A stretch of DNA of 63,359 nt, filler included, from Phoronis australis (lineage: Eukaryota; Animalia; Phoronida): assembly GCA_002633005.1 (NCBI GenBank). It is 5 parts of 5 records of this genome, joined end to end, with 100 filler letters (N's around TTAATTAATTAA, not from the genome) between each part and the next. Parts side by side here need not be neighbours in the genome. Positions count along the whole stretch, not along the records: positions 10,216 to 26,740 come from NMRA01001053.1; 4 more parts are not named here. One strand, written 5' to 3'. Below, in pieces: positions 20,461-47,900 of the stretch. How positions within the stretch are numbered: position 1 is the first letter of the stretch; every line of letters starts with the position of its first letter. A program made the translations under genes and the position numbers. The notes beneath the pieces are model-generated. The model searched no databases. It saw only the letters and a program-made list of their open reading frames with translations, and was not told the origin of the DNA.

Positions 20461-21540
20461 GTTAGATCTTTTCATAGTAGTGAACCTTCGAAGTAGTGAA
20501 CCTTCGGAATGGCGAACCGAATGGTGAGTAGTCTTGTGGGCCGTTTCCATTTCTAACGTCGTAAGAAATTTAAGTCAAACGCAAAAATATATCTGACTAG
20601 ATAAAAGATTTCGTCAAGTTATTCTCCGACTAAATATTTTTGTCCGAGTAGGTGTGATCACTCATTTAAGCATGCCTGATTTGAAAATTTGGCAGGAAGT
20701 AACGCGAGAACGTTTTGGACCACATTACATCCAAATTGAGTCTCCTGCGTTCTTTGCGAGCAATCGTCACATTATCCTCATCTCTGTCTCTGGTATTACT
20801 AATTCCGTCTCATCTCAAAAACATAGAGCCGAGAGTCATTGTTGTGCATTCAAATTTCCTTACCCCTGATTAAGCTGCATCAACTGAGGGCCTTAATGAA
20901 AATTCCACAGTGTCGACGTTTGCAAAATATCAAAGGTCCACAGTTCAAGAAATTCGAACCACCCCCTGCGCAATGCTGGCTACGGCCTGCTTAATCTATT
21001 ATGAAATAAGTTTGAGATGGTGCAACACGTTAAGACTACCGTCCCAGAGCTACCCAGAACTAACAGGCAAGAACAATATTCCGAGCACTATTGAGCTTGT
21101 CAAGACTTTAGGTCAACATTCCGAGGGCCAGAACTCACTGTAGTGTACATCAGAAAAACTGCTTGGGATGTAAAATAGAGTCAAGCTCAACAATGAAAGT
21201 AATGAAACGTATGCGCGGCATTGTGGGGAAAAAGCTGGAACCACAGCTTTTGTCCCCTACCATCTGTTACGCACACAATGGCGCTGTGGTATTTCGGGAT
21301 ACACCCTTCTAATCACAGTCTTCTTTAACTCGATAAAAATGCTTAATCATCGAAAACGCCACTCAAAGTCAAGTAAATTGAAAATTTGTAATGATCACCG
21401 ATAAGCTGAGACGTGTACATGGGATCACGTCTCTCAAACACTTGATTACAGTTCTGCACTCATTTGTCACGATGTGTGAGGGAGTGTTTCACGGAAACCT
21501 CATGTGACAGAATTACTTTAGAAGAACACTCGCAAACTCG

Positions 21541-21655
21541 TGACGTAATAGCAAGACCGAGGCATCACGAGACTGCGAGATTCGATCGAGTACGGGTGAA
21601 TGGTTGGGTATAAATGTTGCGGGACGTTGATCACTGATTCATCCCAAGTCAGTGA
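21541..21655 (+). promoter_or_regulatory. Putative Pol II promoter of the neuropeptide precursor gene
   Basis: CRE/ATF-like TGACGTAA at 21541-21548, TATAAA at 21609-21614, Inr-like TCA at 21639 and TCAGT at 21649, ATG at 21704. Confidence 0.65.
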
Positions 21656-21703
21656 TTTGTTCTCGTGCACTGAGCAGATTCACTTCGTCAGGTAATTCCA
21701 AGA

Positions 21704-21746
21704 ATGGTGTATCTGGTTAGAAATTTCAGCCTCAAGGCATTGGTAG
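21704..21746 (+). CDS. Neuropeptide precursor, coding exon 1 (MVYLVRNFSLKALV + 1 nt; start of signal peptide)
   Basis: ATG 95 nt after the TATA box; ends at a consensus donor G|GTAAGT; phase 1 matches the acceptor at 24249. Confidence 0.8.
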
Positions 21747-22758
21747 GTAAGTATACCATTTCGTTTAGTCTTTTTACTTGTTTAGTAGAGAAAAAGTTTC
21801 GTTAAACTTTATTATTCATGTGTAACGGTGCATGGCAAATCTCTTTGAAAACAATCGATACGACATAGACGCGTATCAACAAAATCGTTGTTAAATTTTC
21901 CAACAAACACTAGTAAAATGTGTTTCAAACTGATATAACACTATTCCATTAATATCCCGAAAATAGTAGCATTGAGCAGTGTCAAATGTTTCATATTTCA
22001 TATTGTTTTGACAATACTATAACACTAACTACTATCACAACAACATGCAAACAAAATCAACAACAACAGCGATTCCCTAAACATAACTACTGTATAATCG
22101 AAAATAATGCGATAATGATAATAAAAATCATTATTTCAATAATTATGATCATAATAATACTGACGGTGAGGAAAATGATAACAATGTTATAAACAATAAT
22201 AATATGAATGGTATCAGTGTTACATGTAGCTTGTTAGGGTCAAAATTGAAATCCAGGAAACAGCAATGAAAGGAAAATTCGTTAACAAAATGCCACGTGT
22301 GTATTGTAAATATTTCCTGAATAGAGGCCTGCCTTTGCATTGTTTTATGTGTTGTGGGTAGATTTCAACGGAGTTTTGATGACGTTCACTAAAATGCGTT
22401 TGACAGACTTCTTGAAGCTATCACAAATTCTTATCACTAAAGCAATGTACATTGTATGAACGAACCACGCGATATCTTTATAGCAACGTGAACGAAAAAA
22501 GGAGCAATGAAATGTGAAACGGTGGAGATTTGCTTAAAAAGAATTGTTTAAATATAAATGTTAAAAATTCCAGCTAAACGGATATCATTAAGTGACGATT
22601 GTTAAAAAGCCTTAGATTTCCACAAAAATCAACTCTTAATTGACTCCTGGTAAAGCAATAAATCCTTATCTTTTTCAGGTATATAGAGGTAGATTCTTGT
22701 TTTTCGTTTTTCCATTTACAGATATCTTGTGAGGCTAGAGATTGACTTAAATATCCAG

Positions 22759-23010
22759 GGGCCCGTTCCAAGAAACTGACTTAAGTTCATTTTTTACTTA
22801 AGTCTAAGATTTTTCTGAACTTCCATACTTTGAAACTTTCACATCCGGTAAGAGAGTTAAAATTAAGATAAAAAAATTATCAAAAACGTAATTCAAACTT
22901 TTAAAAGATCTCTTTCGTAAAACGGTATCGAGACAAATTTAAGTCTGATCTTAAAATTTACTAAAATTTAAGATTTGTCTTGGCTAAGTGAGTTCTGTTG
23001 GAACGGGCTC
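22759..23010. mobile_element. PIF/Harbinger-like MITE inside the neuropeptide gene intron
   Basis: TIRs gggcccgttccaa / ttggaacgggctc; CAG duplicated on both sides (22756-22758, 23011-23013). Confidence 0.8.
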
Positions 23011-23159
23011 CAGGTCTTCAAGCAGCAAAACGTCTGAACTCTAAATGAAATAAAATAATTATCATTGATGTGCTTAATGAAAATGGGAATTGTTGTATAT
23101 GATTGTCTCATTTGAAAAAAAATTGAGTGAACTACTTGAATGAATTGAAAAATCTGCTT

Positions 23160-23745
23160 CTTTTCACGTTTAGTGTTCAGTGTACCTTATAACGTAGGAC
23201 ATACATGTACATGTAGCTTTACCGAAAGCCTGAATAATGTTCAATGGCTGGCGCGTAAATCGTAACGTAATTATTCTGACAACTGTCGGTCTATACTGAC
23301 ATTATCGCTTTTAAGGTCGAAAAACACACTTTTGCGAGTACGTTTGGGTGGGAGAGAATTTTGGAAGTCAGTACCTTTGACCATAGCCATAAACCTGTGT
23401 TTATGTGACTTGTTACAGATCTTGTATTCGCGCTGTTGTCTGCGTCTTTTCACGTTTACTGTTCGTAGAGCTATATAATACATGTAGGTCTTATTTGAGC
23501 TTAACCGAAAACTCTGAATACTGTTCAATGGCTGTGTAAAACGTAACGTATCCAGCCTACTGTCTGCTTTTACCCAAATTTAACTTAATAAGTGGACATT
23601 ATCGTTTTACGGTTGAAAAACACAACTGGGATCACATTTGAATGGGGTAGATTTTTTTAAGTTATTAGCTTTAACCATAGCCATCAACAATAAAATCCGC
23701 GGTGCTTTCGTGGTTTATTACAAATCGCAAATTCGCGCCGTTGTC
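23160..23745. repeat. Diverged intronic tandem duplication, unit ~290 bp
   Basis: ttttcacgttta, tgttcaatggctg, gacattatcg and accatagccat each occur twice in register. Confidence 0.7.
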
Positions 23746-24249
23746 GATCATTTGCGGAAAGCAAGAGGATGACTTAACCAGTTACAGTCATTACGCTAAA
23801 CATACGCCACCTACAGTGAGTGAGATTTACACTGTACATGTAGCTCAGCCAAAATAAGCCAGTAGAGCGCTTTGTTGCGATGGGAGCGTATCAGGTTTGA
23901 TTACGCTCAAGGGCTGATGGGAGAAAACGATTTCACACCAATAACGTTACTTCAAAAGGCAAATACACGACTGACACACTTCAGACAAAAAATACCTTTT
24001 CAAGAGTCCCATGTTATGTAATGTCAACAAGAGAAAATGTCGGCATGCAATACCGCATACTTGTGATAAGAATACAACCCAAAAATATGAATACGGATTA
24101 AAATATAGAAATAATGGGATTAGGAAAACTGAACACAAGCAGAATTCACAAAGACCTTGAAATGTTTTGCACTGATGCAAAGAGATAGCGTCAACATGTA
24201 CATGTACATATGTGCTAAGACTTTATGATGAAATTTTATTTTGTTTCAG

Positions 24250-24560
24250 TTTTCGCCGTAGTAGCACTGGCGTCCAGTGAAGAAAAGGCAAGTAGTCGTA
24301 CTACTCGTGACACTTCATTTGAGAGATTCAATCGAGCAGCAGGCCGGGTGAGACTACCGATAAAAGGTCTACGACTCGGAAAGAGGGAGGGTTTGAACCT
24401 TCCTATGGCAAACTACGTCGAAGACCGCTTTGAATATGTTTTCCCCGAGTCGGAGACCAAGAATGAATACGAACGGCGAATGATAGCGAAACACCCGAGA
24501 TTTGGACGCGAACTGGAAGCTGGGCTTGGCGAATCAACGATTATCGAAGACCTTTATTAG
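24250..24560 (+). CDS. Neuropeptide precursor, coding exon 2 (117-aa prepropeptide in total)
   Basis: Acceptor ttttattttgtttcAG|. Spliced protein: MVYLVRNFSLKALVVFAVVALASSEEKASSRTTRDTSFERFNRAAGRVRLPIKGLRLGKREGLNLPMANYVEDRFEYVFPESETKNEYERRMIAKHPRFGRELEAGLGESTIIEDLY*. It shows a signal peptide, RxxR/KR/RR convertase sites, two Gly amidation donors and acidic spacers. Confidence 0.85.
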
Positions 24561-24635
24561 GTTCATAAAAACTTCACTTTTTCCCCGACAATGCACAGAG
24601 AGACGACATTCCGACGCTAAGGAAACAACATTCAG

Positions 24636-25042
24636 AAAGGAGAATCCCACCATAAAACAACGTATTTCGTATCCATTAAGATCGAGAAGTTCCACTCGAT
24701 AACAGCCTGTTCAGTTCTTTTACCTGACATGAAACAGTAGACGTACATGTAGGTGCTGAAGTTAACCAATGTCGCCACAGGTTCTAACAGTCTGCTCAGC
24801 AGTTCACGAGACGCTTACTGGTGTCAGCTTATCGCTTGGATTCATCGTTTTACATCAATAAATCGTCAAAATTCGATGTAAACATCTTACAAATACATTG
24901 AGTTTTTAGACAAATGAGTCGTTTTATTTCCCTGTAACGGATTTATAGCAATTTTGAGCGTTGGGTCCCATACAAAGTTCGCCGGGGTAGGCCAACTTAC
25001 CGAAGTCGGTCGCGGAAGCTTGGAGTCTTTTGGTGATAAATT
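24636..25042. mobile_element. Old Kolobok-like DNA transposon fragment forming the putative 3' UTR; sibling at 46198-46565
   Basis: aaaggagaat(c/g)ccacc..actcgataa..cagcagttcac..tatcgcttg.attcatcgttt..caataaatc is collinear with the sibling, which begins TTAA-AGGAGAATGCCACC. AATAAA at 24857-24862. Confidence 0.65.
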
Positions 25043-28000
25043 CAGTGGAGGATCTACGTTTTCAGTAAGGGGGGTTTAGGATTCCCGCAAAGGTCGAAAC
25101 CTAGGCGCGTGGCGCCGAGCGGGGGAGGTTCCCCACTCCCGTGTAAGACATTTTTTTTTGATTTTGTAGCCAAATAGTGAAATTTCCATGCATCCTGGTA
25201 AGTGTCTGGCACTTATATGTCTCTTGAGTTTTTCTTAAGATAATTAAAACCCTTCTCGATTTCGTCACATGAACTTGGCTCATAAGTTTCGTGAAACCAT
25301 ATTGTGCACATCTGGGTATGATTCACACTACCAGCAAAATTTTTTGTTGGAACATCTGCTTACATGTACGCACATCTTTTTCAGCAAACGAAAAGTCGTA
25401 TCCGAAAAGGTGTGGTGTATACTCGGGAACCCAATGGTCGTCCGCCTAAGCATAAAACCGGCTTGTTGTCGTACTCACCCAATCATTCCACTTCAAAGTC
25501 ATGATCTGAATAGGATTTGATTTAACTCTCACAAATATATAGTCTTCGTTGATTCAAACGTTTTCTTTTACTTATGCCGAGTTGTTCAACTGTGCATTGA
25601 TTTTCGGCAGCCATTTTGTAATGACTTCTATGGTCGTCATATGCTGCCGCCTTTTGAAAGAACAGCAAACCACACAGAAAAAGGCCAAGAAAATAGTGGA
25701 AAGTGGTATACAGCAATTCTACTTCAACCACAAACTGCTTTACTAGTATGATATCGATTTTTAAATCGATTAAAGTTGATTTAGAATTTCAGTTCTGGAA
25801 AATAAGTCGCAGCTGAGCCCGGGATTGTTTTATTCCAGATATACCTTACTTATTTCTGTTTGTGACCTCTTTATTTGACTTTTTGCTCTTGTTGTACTTA
25901 ACACCACTTATCTTTGCTGTCTTACTTTTTCTTTTCAGTTTCTCTTCATTCTCTGTTAACACCTTGTCAGCCAGAACAGAACTATAACCCTTTGAGACTT
26001 TGTCGGCGCAAGTTGATCATTGAACCTCAATGCAATTGTTCTAATAAATTACCCATAATCGTATTGTTTGATTTTTTCTCATCTTTAACAGGCTTCTGCA
26101 ATCATAAATAAATACACAAGTCGCATTCGAATTTTATTGCTCAATCTCTTCTTTTATTTTTGATTATGTCATGCTGTGTTGTATGTAGCAATGCAATATA
26201 GTGAAATAAAGTCAATGTTTTACTTTATTGGTGGCCATTCTCTATCAATTCAGTATTTTAATTTTCTTCAAATAAATTCAAAATGCTTTAATCAAAAATG
26301 TCAACATAAATGTCGAGCTCAGTACTGTGTTTTGCAATAAAAAAACAAGTGGACAATGTGTTGATGACCAAGGCGTGGGCCGAAACTGTTAAGCACCCAG
26401 GGTGTTCCATTTGTCTGCTGCGTTTTTCCTTTGGCCTAACAGGTGTCGGTTAGTGCCTGGGACAAATGGATACATTGCATAGACAATCCCTGAACTCACT
26501 GGTTCCCTGCGTGCCGCTAGGTGGGGCGGTAGCCGCGCCAGCACGCAGGTATCACTTAAATTTCCTCTGTAAATTTTTTTACACCGGCGTTTCTGATTGG
26601 CTAGTCGATTCGTCAACAGGCAGCGCTTTGCGCAAACAAACTGGCATGGCTGATGGACTGAAGTGTAAATGTGGTCTGTTGTACAGACAAATCGGTGCTT
26701 AAAATTATGTTCAGGAAATGTGAAGCCTAGAAATTGTGATNNNNNNNNNNNNNNNNNNNNNNNNNNNNNNNNNNNNNNNNNNNNTTAATTAATTAANNNN
26801 NNNNNNNNNNNNNNNNNNNNNNNNNNNNNNNNNNNNNNNNACTCGAGTTGAGTATGAAGTGTGAGTTTGAGCATGATTCGAGTCTGAGTACGGAGATTGG
26901 AGACCGGGCCCTGGTTTCCCTGTAAATTGTAAAGGCCTGTTCAGTCTATTGCCACATAGTTGAGGCTTCAAGTCTTAGGTGACATGCTGGAATAAATGAT
27001 TTTTCAAAACTGTACACGCTCTGAGAATTATTTCCAACGACCTAATTTCATATTCTTCAATACAGCTTCCTTGAAAAGAAATGTAATATTTTGTACAGAC
27101 AGGTATCTCAATTGCCGTAAATTTTTTTCAGATTGGAGGACTGGTGAAATTTCATGTTGTCAAATTTCTCTACAAAAATCACTTTTAAGAAAAAATTACT
27201 TTATTTTCCTCATGATTTGTATGGTGCAGCTATTACAAAACAATAAGTTTAAATTTTGAGTATCTGAAACAATTTGGAAGCCACTGAAAAGTGCAAATAT
27301 TGCAAATTTAGCTGTTATTTTTGTCCCGCGAAATTGAAGAATTTTCACACTACAATGTTTCCATTGTTCAGGCAAATTCAGGGATTAGTAACAAATGTTC
27401 ACGATGCAGGCACATGACAATTAAGTTAAGCTGATATTACTGAAAGTCAAAAGTGCAAAAGCAGATGTAACACTTAGAATATCACACACATGATATACGA
27501 CCCTTTGGATACTGAGGTCAAACTGGTCTGCCACACCCCGAAACGATCCTTTGTTGGCTAATACCCAAACCGTCTTTTTTTAAAGACACTGTTCTTCCCA
27601 ACTCATGGGGTCTTATCCATTGGCACAACCAGTGAAAGGAAACACAACGAAGTGGTTTTGTTCAGTTGATTTCGTTTCTAATCTTGACTATTGAAGATGG
27701 TAGTGCTGTTTTGGATGCAATGTAAGAGATTTTTACATCTTCAAAAATCACACTTCTTGCCTAAAAAAATCGCAACATGTGTCTCAAAGTCGAAGGCTGG
27801 TCTGATTACTCGCTATAAACAAGTGACATGCCTGCTTAAAAGCAGGGCTACCTGTTAGTGAAGCGGGATACTAGTTACTGTGACGAGAGCGCCGTCTTTT
27901 GATGGAGTTGTGAGTTAAGTCGAGTCATCAGAACTTGAGTAGGAGTGGTCAATTTTATTTTAAAGTGGTGTATGCTCATCAGTTCCCTTATTTGGTATTT

Positions 28001-33430: not shown

Positions 33431-34198
33431 TCTGTGGCCACCGGTAATTCGAAATGTGCAAAAATCCATGGTGTGCAGGGCTCGACATAACGAGCTGCAG
33501 GTCGCATTTGCGACCTGAAATTTGGAAATGCGAGCTGAGATTTTTGTCAGCTCGTATAAAGTCACAAAATGCGACCTGGAATTTCCAACGAATGCGAGCT
33601 GAGTTTTTACACTTCTCAACAGATACCTGGCAAATACAAAGCAGCTCTTGTTAATCCGACCGTTATTTGGTTGTTGCCAAATACAAGTTCAAAAGAACAC
33701 TAACAGGGCTCCCGATGACTTGTAAGCAAGTCGCGTGATCATGGGATATGCAGAATCAATCTTTGACGCGTTTCATTGGCTAACACTTTCGGCCACTTTT
33801 GTAAATTCCCGGATTCNNNNNNNNNNNNNNNNNNNNNNNNNNNNNNNNNNNNNNNNNNNNNNNNNNNNNNNNNNNNNNNNNNNNNNNNNNNNNNNNNNNN
33901 NNNNNNNNNNNNNNNNNNNNNNNNNNNNNNNNNNNNNNNNNNNNNNNNNNNNNNNNNNNNNNNNNNNNNNNNNNNNNNNNNNNNNNNNNNNNNNNNNNNN
34001 NNNNNNNNNNNNNNNNNNNNNNNNNNNNNNNNNNNNNNNNNNNNNNNNNNNNNNNNNNNNNNNNNNNNNNNNNNNNNNNNNNNNNNNNNNNNNNNNNNNN
34101 NNNNNNNNNNNNNNNNNNNNNNNNNNNNNNNNNNNNNNNNNNNNNNNNNNNNNNNNNNNNNNNNNNNNNNNNNNNNNNNNNNNNNNNNNNNNNNNNGT

Positions 34199-35359
34199 AG
34201 CAAACTTCATGTGGACGTGTACCCTTTCGTGTGGAGGAACTTCTCTGAAAACGGTTATGTCACCGCCTGGTCAGAAGACGCTCCAGAAGTTGGTACGTTC
34301 ACCTTCAGATTGACTGGATTCCAGAAACAACCAACGGACCACTATATGAGGACATTTCACAACTTGGACGACTGGAATCGGAAGCCGAAACATTGCATTG
34401 GCGATCGTCCAAGAGTGAGAGTTGTGCTAGACTGGATCAAAAGCTTTCTGAAGATGTATAAAGGACATCCCAAGTTTGCATTCATGTTTCACAACGAATT
34501 AAGCCATGGGCATAACGACTTAATTCAAACAGCCGACGGGAACTTGCTTAACTTCTTGAAAGAACTTAAAGACGAAGGTCATCTTGATCGTTCATTACTG
34601 ATCCTAATGTCGGATCATGGCGCAAGATTTCGAGAGCAACGAGGCACGTTACAGGGAAAGCAAGAAGAGCGCAATCCATTTTTCGGATTTGCATTTCCAA
34701 ATTGGTTCCAGCAAAAATATCCCAAGGCGTATTCAAATGTGCTAAAAAATTCCGAAAGGCTGGTGACACCGTTCGACGTCCACGAAACTTTGCGGGATGT
34801 ACTCCATTATAAAGAGGTTGGCATGGGAAGTGTCTACGATCGTGGAATAAGTTTGTTCAAGGAGATTCCAAAGAATCGATCGTGTGCACATGCAGCCATC
34901 GATGCCCATTGGTGTAACTGCTTACATTGGACAGTCTTACAGATCGGCCATTCCAGCGCAGTTCAAGGTGCGCATGGTCTTGTTGAGTTCATAAATGAAA
35001 TGACAGAGCAGCAGCGTTCACAGTGTGTAAAACTATCTTTGGAAATGTTGCTGGAAGCAGTTCAATTTCACCCAAGTCCTGAAATGTTAAAATTCAAACA
35101 AAGCAAAGACAAAAATGGTTTGATACCTGACTTCTCCGACAACATGGAAATTGATTATCGTTTATACCAAGTGAAGATTCGGACCTCTCCAAATAACGGT
35201 TTGTACGAGGCGACATTTCGTCAAGACGTTAAATCTGGGTCATTGCGATTTATGAAAGATGACATCAGTCGCATTAATAAGTATGGTGAAGACCCGAACT
35301 GTATAAAACAAACGCACGAGCACTTGAGGAAGTATTGCTTGTGTAAAAATGGGATTTAG
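34199..35359 (+). CDS. DUF229 family protein (alkaline phosphatase/sulfatase-like fold), C-terminal 386 aa; 5' part lost in gap 33817-34196
   Basis: Uninterrupted ORF with DUF229 motifs: PFVWRNFSENGYVTAWSED..GTF..GF..QPTDHYMR, HNELSH, LMSDHG.RF..QGKQEERNPF, RLVTPFDVHETL, GISLF.EIP.NRSC..A.I..HWCNC, and C-terminal ISRINKYG..C....LRKYCLC. Confidence 0.92.
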   Translation, partial: SKLHVDVYPFVWRNFSENGYVTAWSEDAPEVGTFTFRLTGFQKQPTDHYMRTFHNLDDWNRKPKHCIGDRPRVRVVLDWIKSFLKMYKGHPKFAFMFHNELSHGHNDLIQTADGNLLNFLKELKDEGHLDRSLLILMSDHGARFREQRGTLQGKQEERNPFFGFAFPNWFQQKYPKAYSNVLKNSERLVTPFDVHETLRDVLHYKEVGMGSVYDRGISLFKEIPKNRSCAHAAIDAHWCNCLHWTVLQIGHSSAVQGAHGLVEFINEMTEQQRSQCVKLSLEMLLEAVQFHPSPEMLKFKQSKDKNGLIPDFSDNMEIDYRLYQVKIRTSPNNGLYEATFRQDVKSGSLRFMKDDISRINKYGEDPNCIKQTHEHLRKYCLCKNGI

Positions 35360-38874: not shown

Positions 38875-41800
38875 ATAATGTTTTGGTAACCGAATTGAAT
38901 CATTTAAATCGTCTTGGTATGGTCTGAAAAGTTGAAACGGTATACAAATCTGTGTCTTCCGCTATGTCCCTATATATTCTCTAAAAAATGTATGCTATTG
39001 TTTCCGAGAATTTACTCCTAATGATATTCCTATGAATCTGGGGGCAACACAGTCGTAGAAATTCAGTTGTTTTCATACAATTGCGAATGAATCCATAATG
39101 ATATGTATTTTCCGAGTAATTGCGATATTAGTTCCACAGAATATTCGATATATTAAAAAATGAACAATTGTGCATATCTCATTGATTTGATCACGGTGAC
39201 GGTACAACCTTAGAAAGTTTATTTTTTTGTAGGAAAATAGTTTCACTGTTGAAATTTGCCTTTTATCCATTAACAAGAACTTTCATAACCGTAAAATTCA
39301 TGGCAACATCTCGGCACAATCACAATACGTATCGTAAAATTTGATGAAGATCAAATATGAATCTGGAGCAATACAGGCGTGTAAATGCAATAATTTGATG
39401 GAAAGGCGAATGACTCTATACAGATATAGACCCAGGGCTGCCTCTAGTTGCAACAACTGCTGCGATGAAACGCCACATAAAAGCACTATACCGCACCAGG
39501 AAATTCATTTTCTATAGACTTTTGTTTTGTTAAAGAGCAAACGTTCTCGAAGAAGTCGAAAAACTACGAAGGAATTGGCACACGAAGGGAGCGAAGAAAT
39601 TGATAGAGGATTCAGGTTTGCAGCTTCGTGAATTTAAGTTCTCAGACTCGTGATAGTTCAGTAGATTTCCTAACGCTTTACATTCGACCATGCGATTGTA
39701 TTCACAGGTGGCAGACACCCAAGTTGTGTTACTGGCTGTATGAAAGATTGATTACATCTAAAATCTAGGCAAGTGATACATAATGTACGCATAACCACCA
39801 AATAACCAACCAAAGCTAAAAGTGGTCTTCCAAAAATCGCTGCTTATGTGTACACATGGTGAAAAGCATATTTGATATTGAAAATCACTTGTGTCTTTCC
39901 AAGGAGAAAACTAATAAAATTGGGAACATGATCCCTTTTCTCAATCCATGCAAACCCCCTCATTTCTTTTTTGGCACGGTTCATTGAGAAATGAACAACG
40001 CTGGTACACTTGTTCTCATTTGCGAACATAAAACAGCTGTTAATCATGACAGCAATTTGTTTACTAATGCTGTCTTGGGATATGAGCAATATACGTTGAC
40101 TTCGTTGAATGTCAATATTTGAGTATGCTGCAATGTAACCTGCAAATCACTATTTCATCATACTGACCAGGAGGAGGTGTTGTGACTGAAGTGAGTGTTG
40201 AGGCAATAGTCTGAGCTTCGATCGGCTGGCTTGTTGTTGACACAGTAGTGACGCCACCTGTAACGACTATTGCCATAAAATTTCACAACGAGTATAGTAA
40301 ATGTAAGATAATCGGGGCAAGGGCAGCCGATGGTCATTGCTATGACATTGACCGATTCGGCCAGACGTAGGAACCAAAAGTTTAATTTTTCACTATCCTT
40401 CGATTAAATTCAAGTACTGATTGGTGTGTCTAATCTTTGTACATATACAATGTAAGAACATCAGATGTAATGTTTAATATGAAATTGTCCCGGAATAAAA
40501 CTAACGCAGGTTTAAAATGCACAATGGCTAAGACTCGATTTTTATGGATATAGCGGAGTTTATTTATTTATTTTTACTTTTAGGTTTATATCTTGATTAC
40601 CAGCTCACGAAGCTATAGAAACGCACTAAAATATAAAACATAATGTTTTGGTAACCGAATTGAATCATTTAAATCGTCTTGGTATGGTCTGAAAAGTTGA
40701 AACGGTATACAAATCAGTGTCTTCCGCTATGTCCCTATATATTCTCTAAAAAATGTATGCTATTGTTTCCGAGAATTTACTCCTAATGATATTCCTATGA
40801 ATCTGGGGGCAACGCAGTCGTAGAAATTCAGTTGTTTTCATACAATTGCGAATGAATCCATAATGATATGTATTTTCCGAGTAATTGCGATATTAGTTCC
40901 TCAGAATATTCGATATATTAAAAAATGAACAATTGTGCATATCTCATTGATTTGATCACGGTGACGGTACAACCTTAGAAAGTTTATTTTTTTGTAGGAA
41001 AATAGTTTCACTGTTGAAATTTGCCTTTTATCCATTAACAAGAACTTTCATAACCGTAAAATTCATGGCAACATCTCGGCACAATCACAATACGTATCGT
41101 AAAATTTGATGAAGATCAAATATGAATCTGGAGCAATACAGGCGTGTAAATGCAATAATTTGATGGAAAGGCGAATGACTCTATACAGATATAGACCCAG
41201 GGCTGCCTCTAGTTGCAACAACTGCTGCGATGAAACGCCACATAAAAGCACTATACCGCACCAGGAAATTCATTTTCTATAGACTTTTGTTTTGTTAAAG
41301 AGCAAACGTTCTCGAAGAAGTCGAAAAACTACGAAGGAATTGGCACACGAAGGGAGCGAAGAAATTGATAGAGGATTCAGGTTTGCAGCTTCGTGAATTT
41401 AAGTTCTCAGACTCGTGATAGTTCAGTAGATTGCCTAAAGCTTTACATTCGACCATGCGATTGTATTCACAGGTGGCAGACACCCAAGTTGTGTTACTGG
41501 CTGTATGAAAGATTGATTACATCTAAAATTTAGGCAAGTGACACATAATGTACGCATAACCACCAAATAACCAACCAAAGCTAAAAGTGGTCTTCCAAAA
41601 ATCACTGCTTGTGTGTACACATGGTGAAAAGCATATTTGATATTGAAAATCACTTGTGTCTTTCCAAGGAGAAAACTAATAAAATTGAGAACATGATCCC
41701 TTTTCTCAATCCATGCAAACCCCCTCATTTCTTTTTTGGCACGGTCCATTGAGAAATGAACAACGCTGGTACACGTGTTCTCATTTGCAAACACAAAACA

Positions 41801-44800
41801 CCTGTTAATCATGACAGCAATTTGTTTACTAATACTGTCTTGGGATATGAGCAATATACGTTGACTCCGGTAAATGTCAATATTTGTGTATGCTGCATTA
41901 TAACCTGCAAATCACTATTTCATCATACTGACCAGGAGGACGTGTTGTGACTGAAGCGAGTGTTGAGGCAATAGTCTGAGCTTCGGTCGGCTGGCTTGTT
42001 GTTGACACAGTAGTGACGCCAGCTGTAACGACTATTGCCATAAAATTTCACAACGAGTATAGTAAATGTAAGATAATCGGGGCAAGGGCAGCCGATGGTC
42101 ATTCCTTCGACATTAACCGATTCGGCCAGACTTAGGAACCAAAATTTTTCGTTTGATTTTTCACTATCCTTCGATTAAATACAAGTACTGATTGGTGTGT
42201 CTAATCTTTGTACTTGGACAATATAAGAACATCAGATGTAATGTTTAATATGAAATTGTCCCGGAATAAAACTAACGCAGGTTTAAAATGCACAATGGCT
42301 AAGACCAGATTTTTATGGATATAGCGGAGTTTATTTATCTATTTTTAATTTTAGGTTTATATCTTGATTACAAGCTCACGAAGCAATAGAAACGCACTAA
42401 ACTATAATACATATTGTTTTGGTAACCGAATTGAATCATTTAAATGGTCCTGTTTTTGTCTGAAAAGTTGAAACGGTGTAAACTTCAGTGTCTTCCGCTA
42501 TTGCCCTATGTATTCTCTAAAAAAATGTATGCTATAGTTTCCGAGCATTTACTTTTAATGATATTCCTATGAATCTGGGGGCAACACAGTCGTAGAAATT
42601 CAGTTATTTCATACAATTGCGAATGAATCCATAATGATATGTATTTTCCGAGTAATTGCGATATTAGTTCCTCAGAATATTCGATATATTGAAAAATGAA
42701 CAATTGTGCATATCTCATTGATTTGATCACGGTGACGGTACAACCTTAGAAAGTTTTTTTTTTTGTAGGATAATAGTTTCACTGTTGAAATTTGCCTTTT
42801 ATCCATCAACAAGAACTTTCATAACCGTAAAATTCATGGCAACATCTCGGCACAATCATAATACGTATCGTAAAATTTGATGAAGGTCAAATATGTACAA
42901 TGTTTATATGGAGTGTTTTCTCTAAATATTGCCTAATCAGACTTATTGAAACTTGGAGTTTTTATTGAAGTACTAGTTGACGCCACTACCACAGTCATTG
43001 TTGGTTGTTTTGTTGTTGTTTAGAGCTGTGTAACTCCATTTCACGGTGAAGTAAAGGACACATCTTTTCTTTCGATTTTTTGTATATATTGGTTCATCAT
43101 CGTTGTTATTATTTTACAGTACATTTAAACGAGTTACATGTATACTTTTCTGATCTACATGTACTTGAATATAATGTAAGCAATATTACTAAATTTGCAT
43201 ACGTATGAAAACGCTAAACGAAATAAAATAGGGTTTACATTAGTAGAAAAATGCAACAAAATCTTCATCCTTTATGTAGCCCTGCACGTGCTTTCTTACA
43301 GGTATCCTACAAACTCCAGCTGTGCAATAGCACGTTAAAGCTACATATGTGTTGCAAAGGAAAATGGAAAATTACACTTCAAGCCTCGCCCATTGTAAAA
43401 ATATATGGGTTCCTGATTTAGAAACGGTTTACCGTTGGAAAGTGATGTGAAACACCTGTTCATATGCCCACGAAGATGTGCATTTGTATAGTGACGGTTA
43501 GGGTTCTACTCTAGTCACAATTTGCTCCTATGACTGATGCACAAAATGTGCCTGAGATCCACGTTACCAGCAATGGAAAATCACAATGACCTCTTTCTCC
43601 ATAAAACGCTCTCACATGTTGGACAGACACGCTGTCAGCAATCTCCGTTTCTGCGACTGATCGGAGCTCGATTTTTCAAAATGGGCCGAGCGCAGCGTCA
43701 TCCGGCCATAAACTGGTCGCTTTATCTATCGCGCGTTGCCATTGCAATGTGCGACTTAATGACCTGTGCAATTTCTGGGATATTGTACTTAGGGTCTATT
43801 GGAAACGCAGAAACTGAGATATTGTGTCTTCGATCGTTGTTAATTGTCAAATGCACCTTTTCATATAACTCGCCTTAGGGAATATTCAACTGTTGGTTTA
43901 GATCGCACTTTCGCTGATGACGACACGCACTCTTATTTATATATACTTTTGCGTTGATTCCTTGATTACAATTTCAGAGATTGTTAAAAACACACATAAA
44001 GTATATTATCATAATTGCTGGTAACCAATTTTAAACTTTTATGGACTTGCCTTGTTCTGAAGGGTTGAAAAGAGACAAAAAGTTTTTGCCATTGCCGCTA
44101 TAACCCTACTAGATCTCCACGCAAAATTAACGTTATAGTTGTCCGAGCATCTTCGTCTAATGTAATTCTAATGAATCTCGAGCAATACAGGCGTGTAAAT
44201 GCAATAATTTGATGGAAAGGCGAATGAATCTATACAGACATTGACCCAGGGCTGCCTCTAGTTGCATCAACTGCTGCGATGAAACGCCACATAAAAACAC
44301 TATATCGTAACAGGAAATTCATTTTCTATAGACATTTGTTTTGTTAAAGAGCTAAGGTTCTCGAATAAGTCGAAAAACTAAGAAGGAATTGCCACACGAA
44401 GGGTGCGAAGGAATTGATAGAGGATGCAGGTTTGTAGCCTCGTAAATTTAAGTTCTCAGACTCGTGATAGTTCAGTAGATTGCCTAAAGCTTTACATTCG
44501 ACCATGCGACTGTATTCACAGGTGGCACACACCCAAGTTGTGTTACTGGCTGTATGAAAGATTGATTACGTGCACCTAAAATCTAGGCAAGTGACACATA
44601 ATGTACGCATAACCACCAAATAACCAACCAAAGCTAAAAGTGGTCTTGCAAAAATCACTGCTTGTGTGTACACATGGTGAAAAGCATATTTGATATTGAA
44701 AATCACTTGTGTCTGTCCAAGGAAAAAACTAATAAAATTGGGAACATGATCCCTTTTCTCAATCCATGCAAACACCTTCTTCCTTTTTGGCACGGTCCAT

Positions 44801-44929
44801 TGAGAAATGAACAACGCTCGTACACGTGTTCTCATTTGCGAACACAAAACACATGTTAATCATGACAGCAATTTGTTTACTAATACTGTCTTGGGATATG
44901 AGCAATATACGTTGACTCCGGTAAATGTC
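38875..44929. repeat. Tandem array of a ~1.77-kb unit (38875-40639, 40640-42410, interrupted partial copy from 42411)
   Basis: Identical ORF-track peptides at a 1765-bp offset (39298/41063, 39530/41295); gaps flank the array on both sides. Confidence 0.95.
42896..44170. mobile_element. 1275-bp insertion in the third array unit
   Basis: Other units read caaat-ATG-aatct; here ATG flanks the insert on both sides (42893-42895, 44171-44173); the insert begins and ends with TA. Confidence 0.75.
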
Positions 44930-47900
44930 NNNNNNNNNNNNNNNNNNNNNNNNNNNNNNNNNNNNNNNNNNNNTTAATTAATTAANNNNNNNNNNNNNNN
45001 NNNNNNNNNNNNNNNNNNNNNNNNNNNNNCCCCCCTCCCGACTTCCCCCCATTCGGTGCTATGCGCACAAATGCTTACAGCCGGACAAAATGTTGGGCCC
45101 CCCCTTGTGATATCGTAGATCCGCCACTGACAGAACACACAAAATGAAAGACAATGTATCATATTATTGAATAACAGATAATCCTTACCTTTCTGGATCC
45201 TTAGGAAACCTAAAAAATGACACGTCTGGGGTTTTCGTGGATGAATTCATGCAATTTATCGCACTGCAAAATGCGTCCGTCCCCATTGTTTTGGCGCTTC
45301 CTGGTTGACCGTAGCTTGTTCACCACTTGGCGGCGCTAGTAGTAGCGGTAACAGCGAACTCACAAGTGAACTCTCCTATACTACTACACTCCTTGGTTTA
45401 ACTTTGGCGTGATCGGATGGCGCGTGCATCGAGAATTTTTCGCGCGGAATGCTTGCTAATCTAAAAAATTTTGCTATATATATTGAGGCTTGCTTTACAT
45501 CTTTTTTGTATGGTGGATGCTTAGACGTACTACCACTGACCAAAAATCATGTTGTAGTGAACCCGTGCTTTAATACTGCTGCGGTCAAGTGATCCTGAGG
45601 AATATTTTTAGGAGCACGTCATTCATGCACTAATACTTTTTGACGCACCGTCATTGCTTATAACTTGGGCTTTATTGCTTAATCATATCTTATTTCAAAT
45701 TTCTTGAAGTATATGCAGTGAACTGTAACACAACGACTACATGACAACAGCAGAGGAGAACAACTGATCAAAATGAATGCCATACCAACAGTGTTAGCAA
45801 TATGTTAAAACATGTATATTTGGTTAAGTTCATCAGTTTTGTTACGCGCGTAGGACTGTTACAGGTACCCGATATCACTCGGTTGTGGTCCTCGATCTAT
45901 CTCTTCGATTCTAATAACGATGAGCGCCACTTAATGGCAAGTATGTTTACTAAACTGAAATTATGTCCCATTGACATAGAAAATAGGTAGTCATCATAAG
46001 TTTTCATAATAACCACCAAATGTTTTTAAAAATTTACCATGACTTTAAGGTTATAAAAAACCAAGATGGTAGTGAACTAGGATGGGGACATCTTGTATGG
46101 TAGCATTGGGGATTTTAGACGGTCTTGCTAGAAATTGCTTAGCAAATACATAGTATACAGTGGCTGCTACTCAAGCACACTAGAGTAACTACCTCTATTA
46201 AAGGAGAATGCCACCCAAAAAACAGCCTATTTTGTATCAATTTAGATTGAGTAGTTCTACTCGATAATGGCACGTTCGGTTGCGTTACCTAACACCTGAC
46301 GGCACACAGAGGTGTAGAAATTATCCAATGACGTCATTGGTTTCACATGCAGTGTGTTCAGCAGTTCACAACAGGGGTTACTGTTGTCAGTTTATCGCTT
46401 GAATTCATCGTTTAACACCAATAAATCATCAAACAAAAACGTGTTGTTTTATTTCGCTGTTACGGATTTATTGGTATTTGGACACACCGTAACCTACAAA
46501 GTTCGGCAGGCCAATTTAGCAATGTCCGTAGCAGGAGTTTGGGGTCTGTTCGGAGATAAATTCGAAGTTTTTGTTTAGCCACTGGATTTTTTGGTCTGAC
46601 AGAGTTTCTCAGTGTGGCCATTACATTTAGACGTTTTTTTGGGATTTCTGACCACTGTACTGTTTCTTTTCCTTGGAATTGTGTAATTGATCTGAATTTA
46701 TGTTTCCGCATTTCATTTACCATTATGGATTTTTGTTTGTAAATGAGTATTTATTACTAACATTTGAGCCCCTGTTGCAGTTCGGCTGGTTTTATTCACG
46801 TATTTTTCTGCCTAGGTTGTAAACCCACATTCCGTCCAGGAGGTAAAGTTTTGATTTAGACCATTTACCTCCGTAAACTTTTCTCAATTTGTTTCTGATC
46901 CAGATGGGAAGTGATTTCTGTAATTGCACCAAATTGACAGTTTGCTATTCCTTGAGACCATTCTGTGTGCATAAAATCACACACTATTAGATAAGCCATC
47001 TTATAGAGATGTCCACTTCAAATGATTTTTTGTTGCAGTACTGAAAAGTGTTGGCACATTAGCTCTGGTGACTTCTTCACCATAAATGTAATTCCCTGAC
47101 TTTATGGCTTTTGTGTGGGTGCTGTAGCAACTGGAGTGTCTAGAAGGCATTTGTTTATTAGAGTCATAACATTTGCACTTTTGACTGTACAGTTATCTTT
47201 GTATTGTATTATGAAAACATATTTTGAAGTATACAAGTCTCTGGTTGGTGTTTTATATTATTTCACAAGGAATATTTTCAACTTAGATGAGTTGTCTGTG
47301 ACGTAGATAACTTTCAAATGAGATAAGAAATAAAATTGTCAAACATTGTTTTATTTTTTAGGTGTGTGATCTTTCAGTAAGTGATTACTTTTGAAAAACC
47401 AGTGCAGAATTTGATGTTTACTCTTCATTTAAAAGAGAATAAACCCATAAACCTGTATTGTCCAGAACTTTTACTCAAACTGCAGATTTAAGGTTGGGGA
47501 TTGGAATTTCAATACAACGGAATATGAACCCAAACCATGAGCAATACAACACAATACATGGATATAAAAATTTGGTGTTTAGCTTCCACGGGAAGAATTC
47601 CTGTGCATGGTAAGAGTTGCTGAGGTGCGTGATAAGTGTTTGTGGATATTTTGGGTATCCTCCTCTGTGGTCATCCAGAGGAAACCTGGTTGCATAGAGA
47701 ACAATACATTAGCTTCTTCATTGGTCCCGTTGTTATATGTATAATAAATATAATGACAAGCATTTATCGGTCAGATGTACTTCCAAGATTCTATATCCAT
47801 TTGACCTGTGTTGTTATATACAACAATGACACAACAACGGAAAACAATGATACGACCGATGGGCAATATACATGGGACGAGTTGCCATGGACAGTGGTGG

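What the first reader, a model, noticed from the sequence alone, without database searches (positions are those of the whole stretch)
21541..24862. Hidden two-exon neuropeptide precursor encoding an unusual pair of amidated peptides (-GLRLamide and -HPRFamide)
Seen: an ATG exon ending at G|GTAAGT (21746) splices in phase to tttcAG| (24249) across a 2503-bp intron. This replaces the ORF track's intron-derived start with a proper signal peptide (MVYLVRNFSLKALVVFAVVALASS). Established convertase/PAM rules (RxxR, KR, RR; Gly amide donor) predict AAGRVRLPIKGLRL-NH2 (or LPIKGLRL-NH2 after RVR) and MIAKHPRF-NH2, between acidic spacers. Inference: -LRLamide resembles myomodulin and -PRFamide resembles NPF/PRXamide termini, but the precursor has neither multi-copy myomodulin nor ~36-40-residue NPF architecture. 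I do not recognise the family, so it may be an undescribed peptide signalling system.
Basis: partly seen in the sequence, partly recalled or inferred. Interest (0 to 1): 0.85.

Follow-up and report, generated by a model that had tools for sequence, protein, structure and literature searches.

The report
Truncated extra copy of phoronid myomodulin
This is a real, spliced and expressed gene, but not a new peptide family: it is a shortened, diverged second copy (likely a gene duplicate) of the known myomodulin neuropeptide gene of a horseshoe worm, predicted to yield two altered peptides where the full-length gene yields about seven.

Summary
The gene model holds. RNA reads join 21746 to 24250 (117 in X1, 95 in X2). 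The family claim fails. The 117-residue protein matches the N-terminal part of the published Phoronis australis myomodulin precursor at 92 of 117 residues (by eye). An RLamide plus a PRXamide on one precursor is the described myomodulin pattern. Runs of the same species hold two read classes: the window's form and the full-length form. The window's form lacks one Gly-Lys-Arg site, which fuses two peptides. It stops early at 24558-24560. Behind the stop lie about 75 bases of decayed coding sequence and then an interspersed repeat that carries the AATAAA. It outnumbers the full-length form about 5-8 to 1 in X1 and X2 and was not seen in X3. Most likely it is an undescribed, repeat-truncated duplicate that still makes two amidated peptides. 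Selection on it is not shown (pN/pS about 1), so an expressed decaying copy remains a real rival.

The parts
21541..21548 (+). CRE-like motif TGACGTAA upstream of the TATA box (sequence match only)
   Evidence: 1 of 6 matches to TGACGT[CA]A on both strands of the window; function untested
21609..21614 (+). TATA box
   Evidence: lies 46 nt before the pile-up of read ends
21655..21746 (+). exon 1 as covered by reads (5' UTR, then CDS from 21704)
   Evidence: 26 and 23 molecules end at 21655 in X1 and X2; the true cap may lie a few bases upstream (inference)
21747..24249 (+). phase-1 GT..AG intron, 2503 nt, holding repeats
   Evidence: joint table; for repeats
24250..24560 (+). exon 2 coding part: end of the predicted signal peptide, spacers, two peptide cassettes, stop
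24336..24386 (+). predicted RLamide peptide AAGRVRLPIKGLRL with GKR; a fusion of the first two myomodulin peptides, since the full-length form has 9 more bases (GKR) at 24355-24356
   Evidence: table 4 (X4 contig); (three Phoronis species have the GKR)
24480..24509 (+). predicted PRXamide peptide MIAKHPRF with GR
   Evidence: homologous to the phoronid PRFamide/PRIamide cassette
24558..24560 (+). premature stop; the full-length form reads Ser here
   Evidence: other letters at 24559-24560 in 18 of 166-168 reads (X1), 13 of 126-128 (X2), 5 of 5 (X3); the remaining reads keep the stop
24561..24635 (+). decayed myomodulin coding sequence, now 3' UTR, one base short in the A run at 24567-24571
   Evidence: the shifted frame resembles the published continuation; loose ends behind 24571
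24636..25043 (+). interspersed repeat that starts where myomodulin homology ends and carries the AATAAA at 24857-24862
   Evidence: 24636-24870 matches 46200-46433 at 74.7% (E 3e-37), 24918-25043 matches 46443-46563; the other copy has AATAAA at the same place; reads of other copies on both strands

Best explanation
The locus is a spliced, expressed, shortened homologue of the phoronid myomodulin precursor gene, likely a DNA-level duplicate, and its product is predicted to be secreted and cut into one RLamide and one PRXamide peptide that would act on the myomodulin and pyrokinin/neuromedin-U-type receptors. Shown: splicing, strand and expression in X1 and X2; a second, full-length read class in the same runs; nine missing bases at a cleavage site; the early stop; the decayed tail; the repeat at the 3' end. 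Inferred: the copy kept promoter and intron, so it is not a retrocopy. Its 3' half was lost at a junction with a repeat that likely supplies the poly(A) signal. The stop is in the last exon, so the mRNA would escape junction-dependent nonsense-mediated decay (established knowledge). Convertases would cut at RFNR, KR, RR and R, carboxypeptidase would trim, and PAM would amidate (established rules). Receptor use is inferred from family data and was not tested.
For: 92 of 117 residues identical to P. australis myomodulin, colinear from Met to the stop (by eye). The second read class translates to the published residues: at 24436 it is 26 of 154 reads in X1, 9 of 83 in X2, 13 of 13 in X3; one 2367-nt X4 contig has 34 other letters and 9 extra bases over 24342-24571. 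Window-type reads at 99%+ are 309 of 371 (X1), 217 of 250 (X2), 0 of 18 (X3), so stop and frameshift are not assembly errors. Both disabling changes lie behind the two cassettes: chance 0.03 if spread evenly over 432 nt. Divergence is 11 of 43 nt from the stop on against 29 of 216 nt in the coding part (Fisher p 0.06 two-sided). All amidation and cleavage motifs of the two cassettes are kept. Family pattern and receptors.
Against: pN/pS between the two forms is about 1.0-1.2 over 72 codons (hand-classified, site counts; Fisher p 1.0), so purifying selection is not shown. A block that is invariant in three Phoronis species took 4 substitutions and a deletion in this copy (by eye). A Pro-to-Ser variant in the PRXamide motif is in 19 of 180 (X1) and 7 of 108 (X2) reads, including otherwise clean reads. 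The two hints of selection rest on very small counts, and the post-stop count includes the two changes at the stop itself. The second locus was never seen as DNA, because no genome is held. No peptide was detected.
Confidence: 0.6

Rival explanations
1. The copy is an expressed but decaying duplicate: it is transcribed from an intact promoter, and any peptides it yields do nothing that selection keeps.
For: pN/pS about 1; a segregating Pro-to-Ser change in the PRXamide motif; not seen in X3 or X4; about 14 amino-acid changes on its branch, spread along the protein (by eye against P. ijimai).
Against: It outnumbers the full-length form 5-8 to 1 in X1 and X2. The only indel in the examined coding part is in frame and removes exactly a cleavage site. 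Both disabling hits fall behind the cassettes.
Confidence: 0.25
2. The two forms are very divergent alleles of one myomodulin locus, or come from cryptic species mixed under one label, rather than paralogues.
For: X3 and X4 show only the full-length form. No genome was available to show two loci. The window holds no second copy.
Against: About 13% divergence at both synonymous and other sites; unrelated 3' ends; both forms in X1 and X2 at very unequal shares; at 8 positions the window's form keeps the P. ijimai residue where the full-length form differs, which points to long separation.
Confidence: 0.08
3. The duplicate was recruited to a new, possibly non-neural secretory role, such as an exocrine or defensive peptide, as neuropeptide copies were in cone snails.
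For: High, on/off expression across samples; rewritten peptide N-termini; a repeat at the breakpoint. Cone snail recruitment is described as often aided by transposable elements (PMC12621736, passages).
Against: It keeps the ancestral signal peptide and first coding exon, whereas that preprint says most recruits took on another gene's 5' UTR. The 14 against 8 changes per branch are not significant (p 0.29). Tissues of the runs are unknown.
Confidence: 0.05
4. The gene is a new neuropeptide family unrelated to myomodulin.
For: No hits; no paper with 'GLRLamide'.
Against: Colinear 79% identity to an annotated myomodulin and DNA-level homology running past the stop. The blank searches likely mean that phoronid precursors are missing from those libraries.
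Confidence: 0.02

Closest known systems
Phoronis australis myomodulin precursor (Thiel et al. 2021, PMC8557429 supplement, TRINITY_DN317780_c2_g10_i1.p1) and its orthologues in P. ijimai and P. psammophila
   Same: Signal peptide, RxxR sites, the RL-GKR cassette, acidic spacer, PRF-GR cassette and following spacer; 92 of 117 residues identical (by eye).
   Different: One GKR is missing, so two peptides are fused; 25 substitutions; the protein ends at 117 residues instead of running on through four more RL-G[K/R] cassettes; the 3' UTR is repeat-derived.
Gastropod myomodulin-2 type precursors (Deroceras myomodulin2, Aplysia MMG2; PMC7749107 passages)
   Same: RLamide and PRXamide peptides on one precursor. 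Slug myomodulin2/3 PRXamides activate an NmU/PRXamide receptor. Slug myomodulin3 is a precedent for a paralogue with a reduced peptide set.
   Different: Those carry 4-5 peptides, and no sequence similarity beyond the C-terminal motifs was tested. The phoronid copy is an independent, recent duplicate (inference).
NPY/NPF (RPRFamide)
   Same: C-terminal PRFamide only.
   Different: [quoted passage not shown]

Membership tests
Lophotrochozoan myomodulin precursors | Homology to annotated myomodulin precursors along the precursor | tested here: met
   92 of 117 residues, colinear, by eye; DNA-level match of the full-length read class over 24342-24571. No program alignment to the published protein was run.
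Lophotrochozoan myomodulin precursors | C-terminal LRL/LRMamide peptide followed by Gly and a basic site | tested here: met
   LRL-GKR at 24369-24386; definition in PMC6425005
Lophotrochozoan myomodulin precursors | PRXamide peptide on the same precursor (all but gastropod myomodulin-1 and flatworms) | tested here: met
   PRF-GR at 24495-24509
Lophotrochozoan myomodulin precursors | Multiple RLamide copies (typical, 'generally' in PMC6425005; treated as usual rather than defining) | tested here: not met
   One RLamide only, after fusion and truncation. This is why it is filed as a variant and not as a typical member.
Lophotrochozoan myomodulin precursors | N-terminal signal peptide | tested here: met
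   Hydropathy only and near identity to the published precursor's N-terminus; SignalP not available
Lophotrochozoan myomodulin precursors | Peptides are made and activate myomodulin/myosuppressin-type and PRXamide receptors | not testable with these tools
   Needs peptidomics and receptor assays; both receptor groups are reported in phoronids
NPY/NPF | A single 36-40-residue peptide right after the signal peptide | tested here: not met
   The PRFamide lies at residues 92-99 behind an RR site
Pleurin | [quoted passage not shown] | tested here: not met
   PMC8557429 passage
LXRX | Repeated, non-amidated LxRV-type units | tested here: not met
   Phoronid LXRX entries look nothing like this protein (by eye)

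The most novel reading that the evidence does not exclude
A young myomodulin duplicate has become a new signal. Deleting one cleavage site fused two peptides that are invariant across Phoronis into a new 14-residue ligand, a repeat cut away the other peptides and supplied a new 3' end, and the gene is now switched on strongly in a tissue or stage of its own, acting on a different receptor balance or outside the nervous system.
Probability: 0.15. Interest if true: 0.6.

Novelty: new variant of a known kind. Interest (0 to 1): 0.3.

Why it matters
It adds an unlisted myomodulin paralogue in a little-studied phylum. It is also a clear small case of how a multi-peptide precursor can be re-cut: loss of one processing site plus repeat-linked truncation. 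With the parent gene expressed in the same species, parent and derived peptides can be compared directly on the same receptors. It does not reveal a new signalling system.

Tried and rejected
Protein searches with the exon-2 product found nothing: word search, 3 candidates and none at E<=1; phmmer on 1.84 billion representatives, 0 hits; ESM Atlas, no usable hit; Pfam, 0 families; PDB sequences, 0. These blanks say nothing on novelty, as the published phoronid precursors would have scored. The run search listed no RNA holder by words; the four runs came by species label. No whole genome is held. The neighbouring DUF229 gene did not place the organism: best hits 38-51% across many phyla. Paper searches: 'GLRLamide' 0; HPRFamide/GLRLa variants 14 papers, none seen to concern this gene from the listing; myomodulin + Phoronis 2; myomodulin + phoronid 8, 7 listed; 'myomodulin receptor' 1, not read. 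No second myomodulin copy and no recognisable rest of the 3' half in the window by tblastn, blastn and motif scans; decayed remnants or sequence under N gaps could be missed. No terminal inverted repeat or target-site duplication was found for the 3' repeat. Earlier findings: nothing returned. NPF, pleurin and LXRX were rejected on architecture.

Full report
Observation. The window has ATG at 21704, a donor after 21746 and an acceptor ending at 24249. The spliced CDS is 354 nt and 117 residues. Four public runs under the same species label were laid on 21400-25200. The joint skipping 2503 nt with GT..AG ends is in 117 reads of X1, 95 of X2 and 3 of X3, and in no X4 contig. First mates lie on the minus strand over both exons, which in most stranded libraries means a plus-strand RNA. 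Read ends pile up at 21655, 46 nt behind a TATAAA at 21609. The gene is real.

What it is. Sequence libraries gave nothing. A motif search in the supplement of Thiel et al. 2021 (PMC8557429; I saw main-text passages, supplement search hits and supplement part 16) returned the Phoronis australis myomodulin precursor. By eye, 92 of the window protein's 117 residues are identical to its N-terminal part, with one three-residue gap. The organism is therefore likely P. australis or very close to it. The family's definition covers the 'unusual pair': PMC6425005 (passages) says lophotrochozoan myomodulin precursors give LRL/LRMamides and, with two exceptions, also PRXamides. PMC8557429 says the same. 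In the slug, PRXamides from myomodulin genes activate a neuromedin-U-type receptor (PMC7749107, passages).

How it differs from the parent. Laying reads at 80% likeness on 24340-24610 showed two classes. Reads 99% or more like the window are 309 of 371 in X1, 217 of 250 in X2 and 0 of 18 in X3. A second class makes up 26 of 154 reads at 24436 in X1, 9 of 83 in X2 and 13 of 13 in X3, and is the single X4 contig laid (2367 nt, 34 other letters, 9 extra bases). Where I read it off, this class gives the residues of the published precursor. Its nine extra bases encode Gly-Lys-Arg between the first two peptides. It has a Ser codon where the window has its stop, and its loose end behind 24571 carries one more A and continues the published frame. 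The window's form has thus lost a cleavage site, gained a stop and shifted frame behind it. As most reads in X1 and X2 carry these features, they are not assembly errors. The second class may be undercounted, as its reads lie only partly on the window. The 3 junction reads in X3 may belong to it.

The 3' end. In a shifted frame, 24561-24635 still resembles the published continuation. At 24636 an interspersed repeat begins. It matches 46200-46433 at 74.7% (E 3e-37) and goes on to about 25043. The AATAAA at 24857 lies in this repeat, and the other copy has it too. Stranded depth in X1 falls from 158 to 81 to about background (18, on both strands) across 24575-24955. This fits a 3' end near there, but no poly(A) reads were seen. 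The other copy's left end, TTAAAGG, recalls Kolobok/Angel-type DNA elements; that label is recalled and comes from no call, and no right end was found. The four further RL-G[K/R] cassettes of the parent (counted by eye) were not found in the window.

Is it functional? The evidence is mixed. Against: over 72 codons I classified by hand about 22 nonsynonymous and 6-7 synonymous differences, from the 28 listed X4 differences before the stop plus one seen only in X1-X3 (2 of the contig's 34 were not listed). With 161.7 and 54.3 sites this gives dN/dS 1.0-1.2, no different from neutrality. Against P. ijimai, 14 changes fall on the window's branch, 8 on the parent's and 3 are unclear (by eye; p 0.29). 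A Pro-to-Ser variant in the PRXamide is in about one read in ten to fifteen of X1 and X2. For: the copy is the dominant form in two samples; the one indel in the examined coding part is in frame; both disabling changes lie behind the cassettes (0.03 by chance); and sequence from the stop onward is about twice as diverged as the coding part (11 of 43 against 29 of 216, p 0.06). These are small counts. I put a working two-peptide precursor, in a neural or another role, at about 0.65 and an expressed decaying copy at 0.25.

Paralogue or allele. No genome was held, so two loci were not seen. About 13% divergence, unrelated 3' ends, unequal coexistence in X1 and X2, and retained ancestral residues favour a duplicate. 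Whether absence from X3 and X4 reflects tissue, stage or a presence/absence polymorphism is open.

Novelty. The copy is not in the supplements searched: the 8-mer motif had 0 hits in both, and the signal-peptide motif had 3 hits in PMC8557429, of which the 2 shown are the known entry (one file of PMC6425005 was cut when stored). Only the two versions of Thiel et al. hold both 'myomodulin' and 'Phoronis'; one search added listings that I did not read. The bioRxiv version's supplements and subscription papers were not seen. Verdict: a new variant of a known kind, interest 0.3.

Noticed in passing
window 33767-35359 (+): DUF229 (PF02995) family coding exon, interrupted by a 380-nt N gap; best hits 38-51% identical.
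   Followed up: partly
window 38875-44929: Near-identical tandem blocks (38875-41124 against 40640-42895 at 96.5%, and further copies), bounded by 44-N masks: a recent tandem duplication or an assembly artefact.
   Followed up: no
window 24495 and 24577: Minor variants in X1 and X2: C>T at 24495 (Pro to Ser in the PRXamide; 19 of 180 and 7 of 108 reads) and an extra T behind 24577 (13 of 172, 5 of 128). A second allele or a third copy; linkage not known.
   Followed up: partly
window 23153-23688: Two related stretches of about 245 nt (23153-23394 and 23439-23688, 67% alike, same orientation) inside the intron, with a further related piece at 163-315.
   Followed up: no
window 22750-23013: Short repeats in the intron that draw many reads of other transcripts on both strands.
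   Followed up: no
window 21400-21526: A few reads upstream of the TATA box, on opposite strands in X1 and X2; those of X1 carry several other letters and are likely from a repeat.
   Followed up: no
window 46198-46563: Second copy of the repeat found in the 3' UTR, beginning TTAAAGG; no matching right end found nearby.
   Followed up: partly
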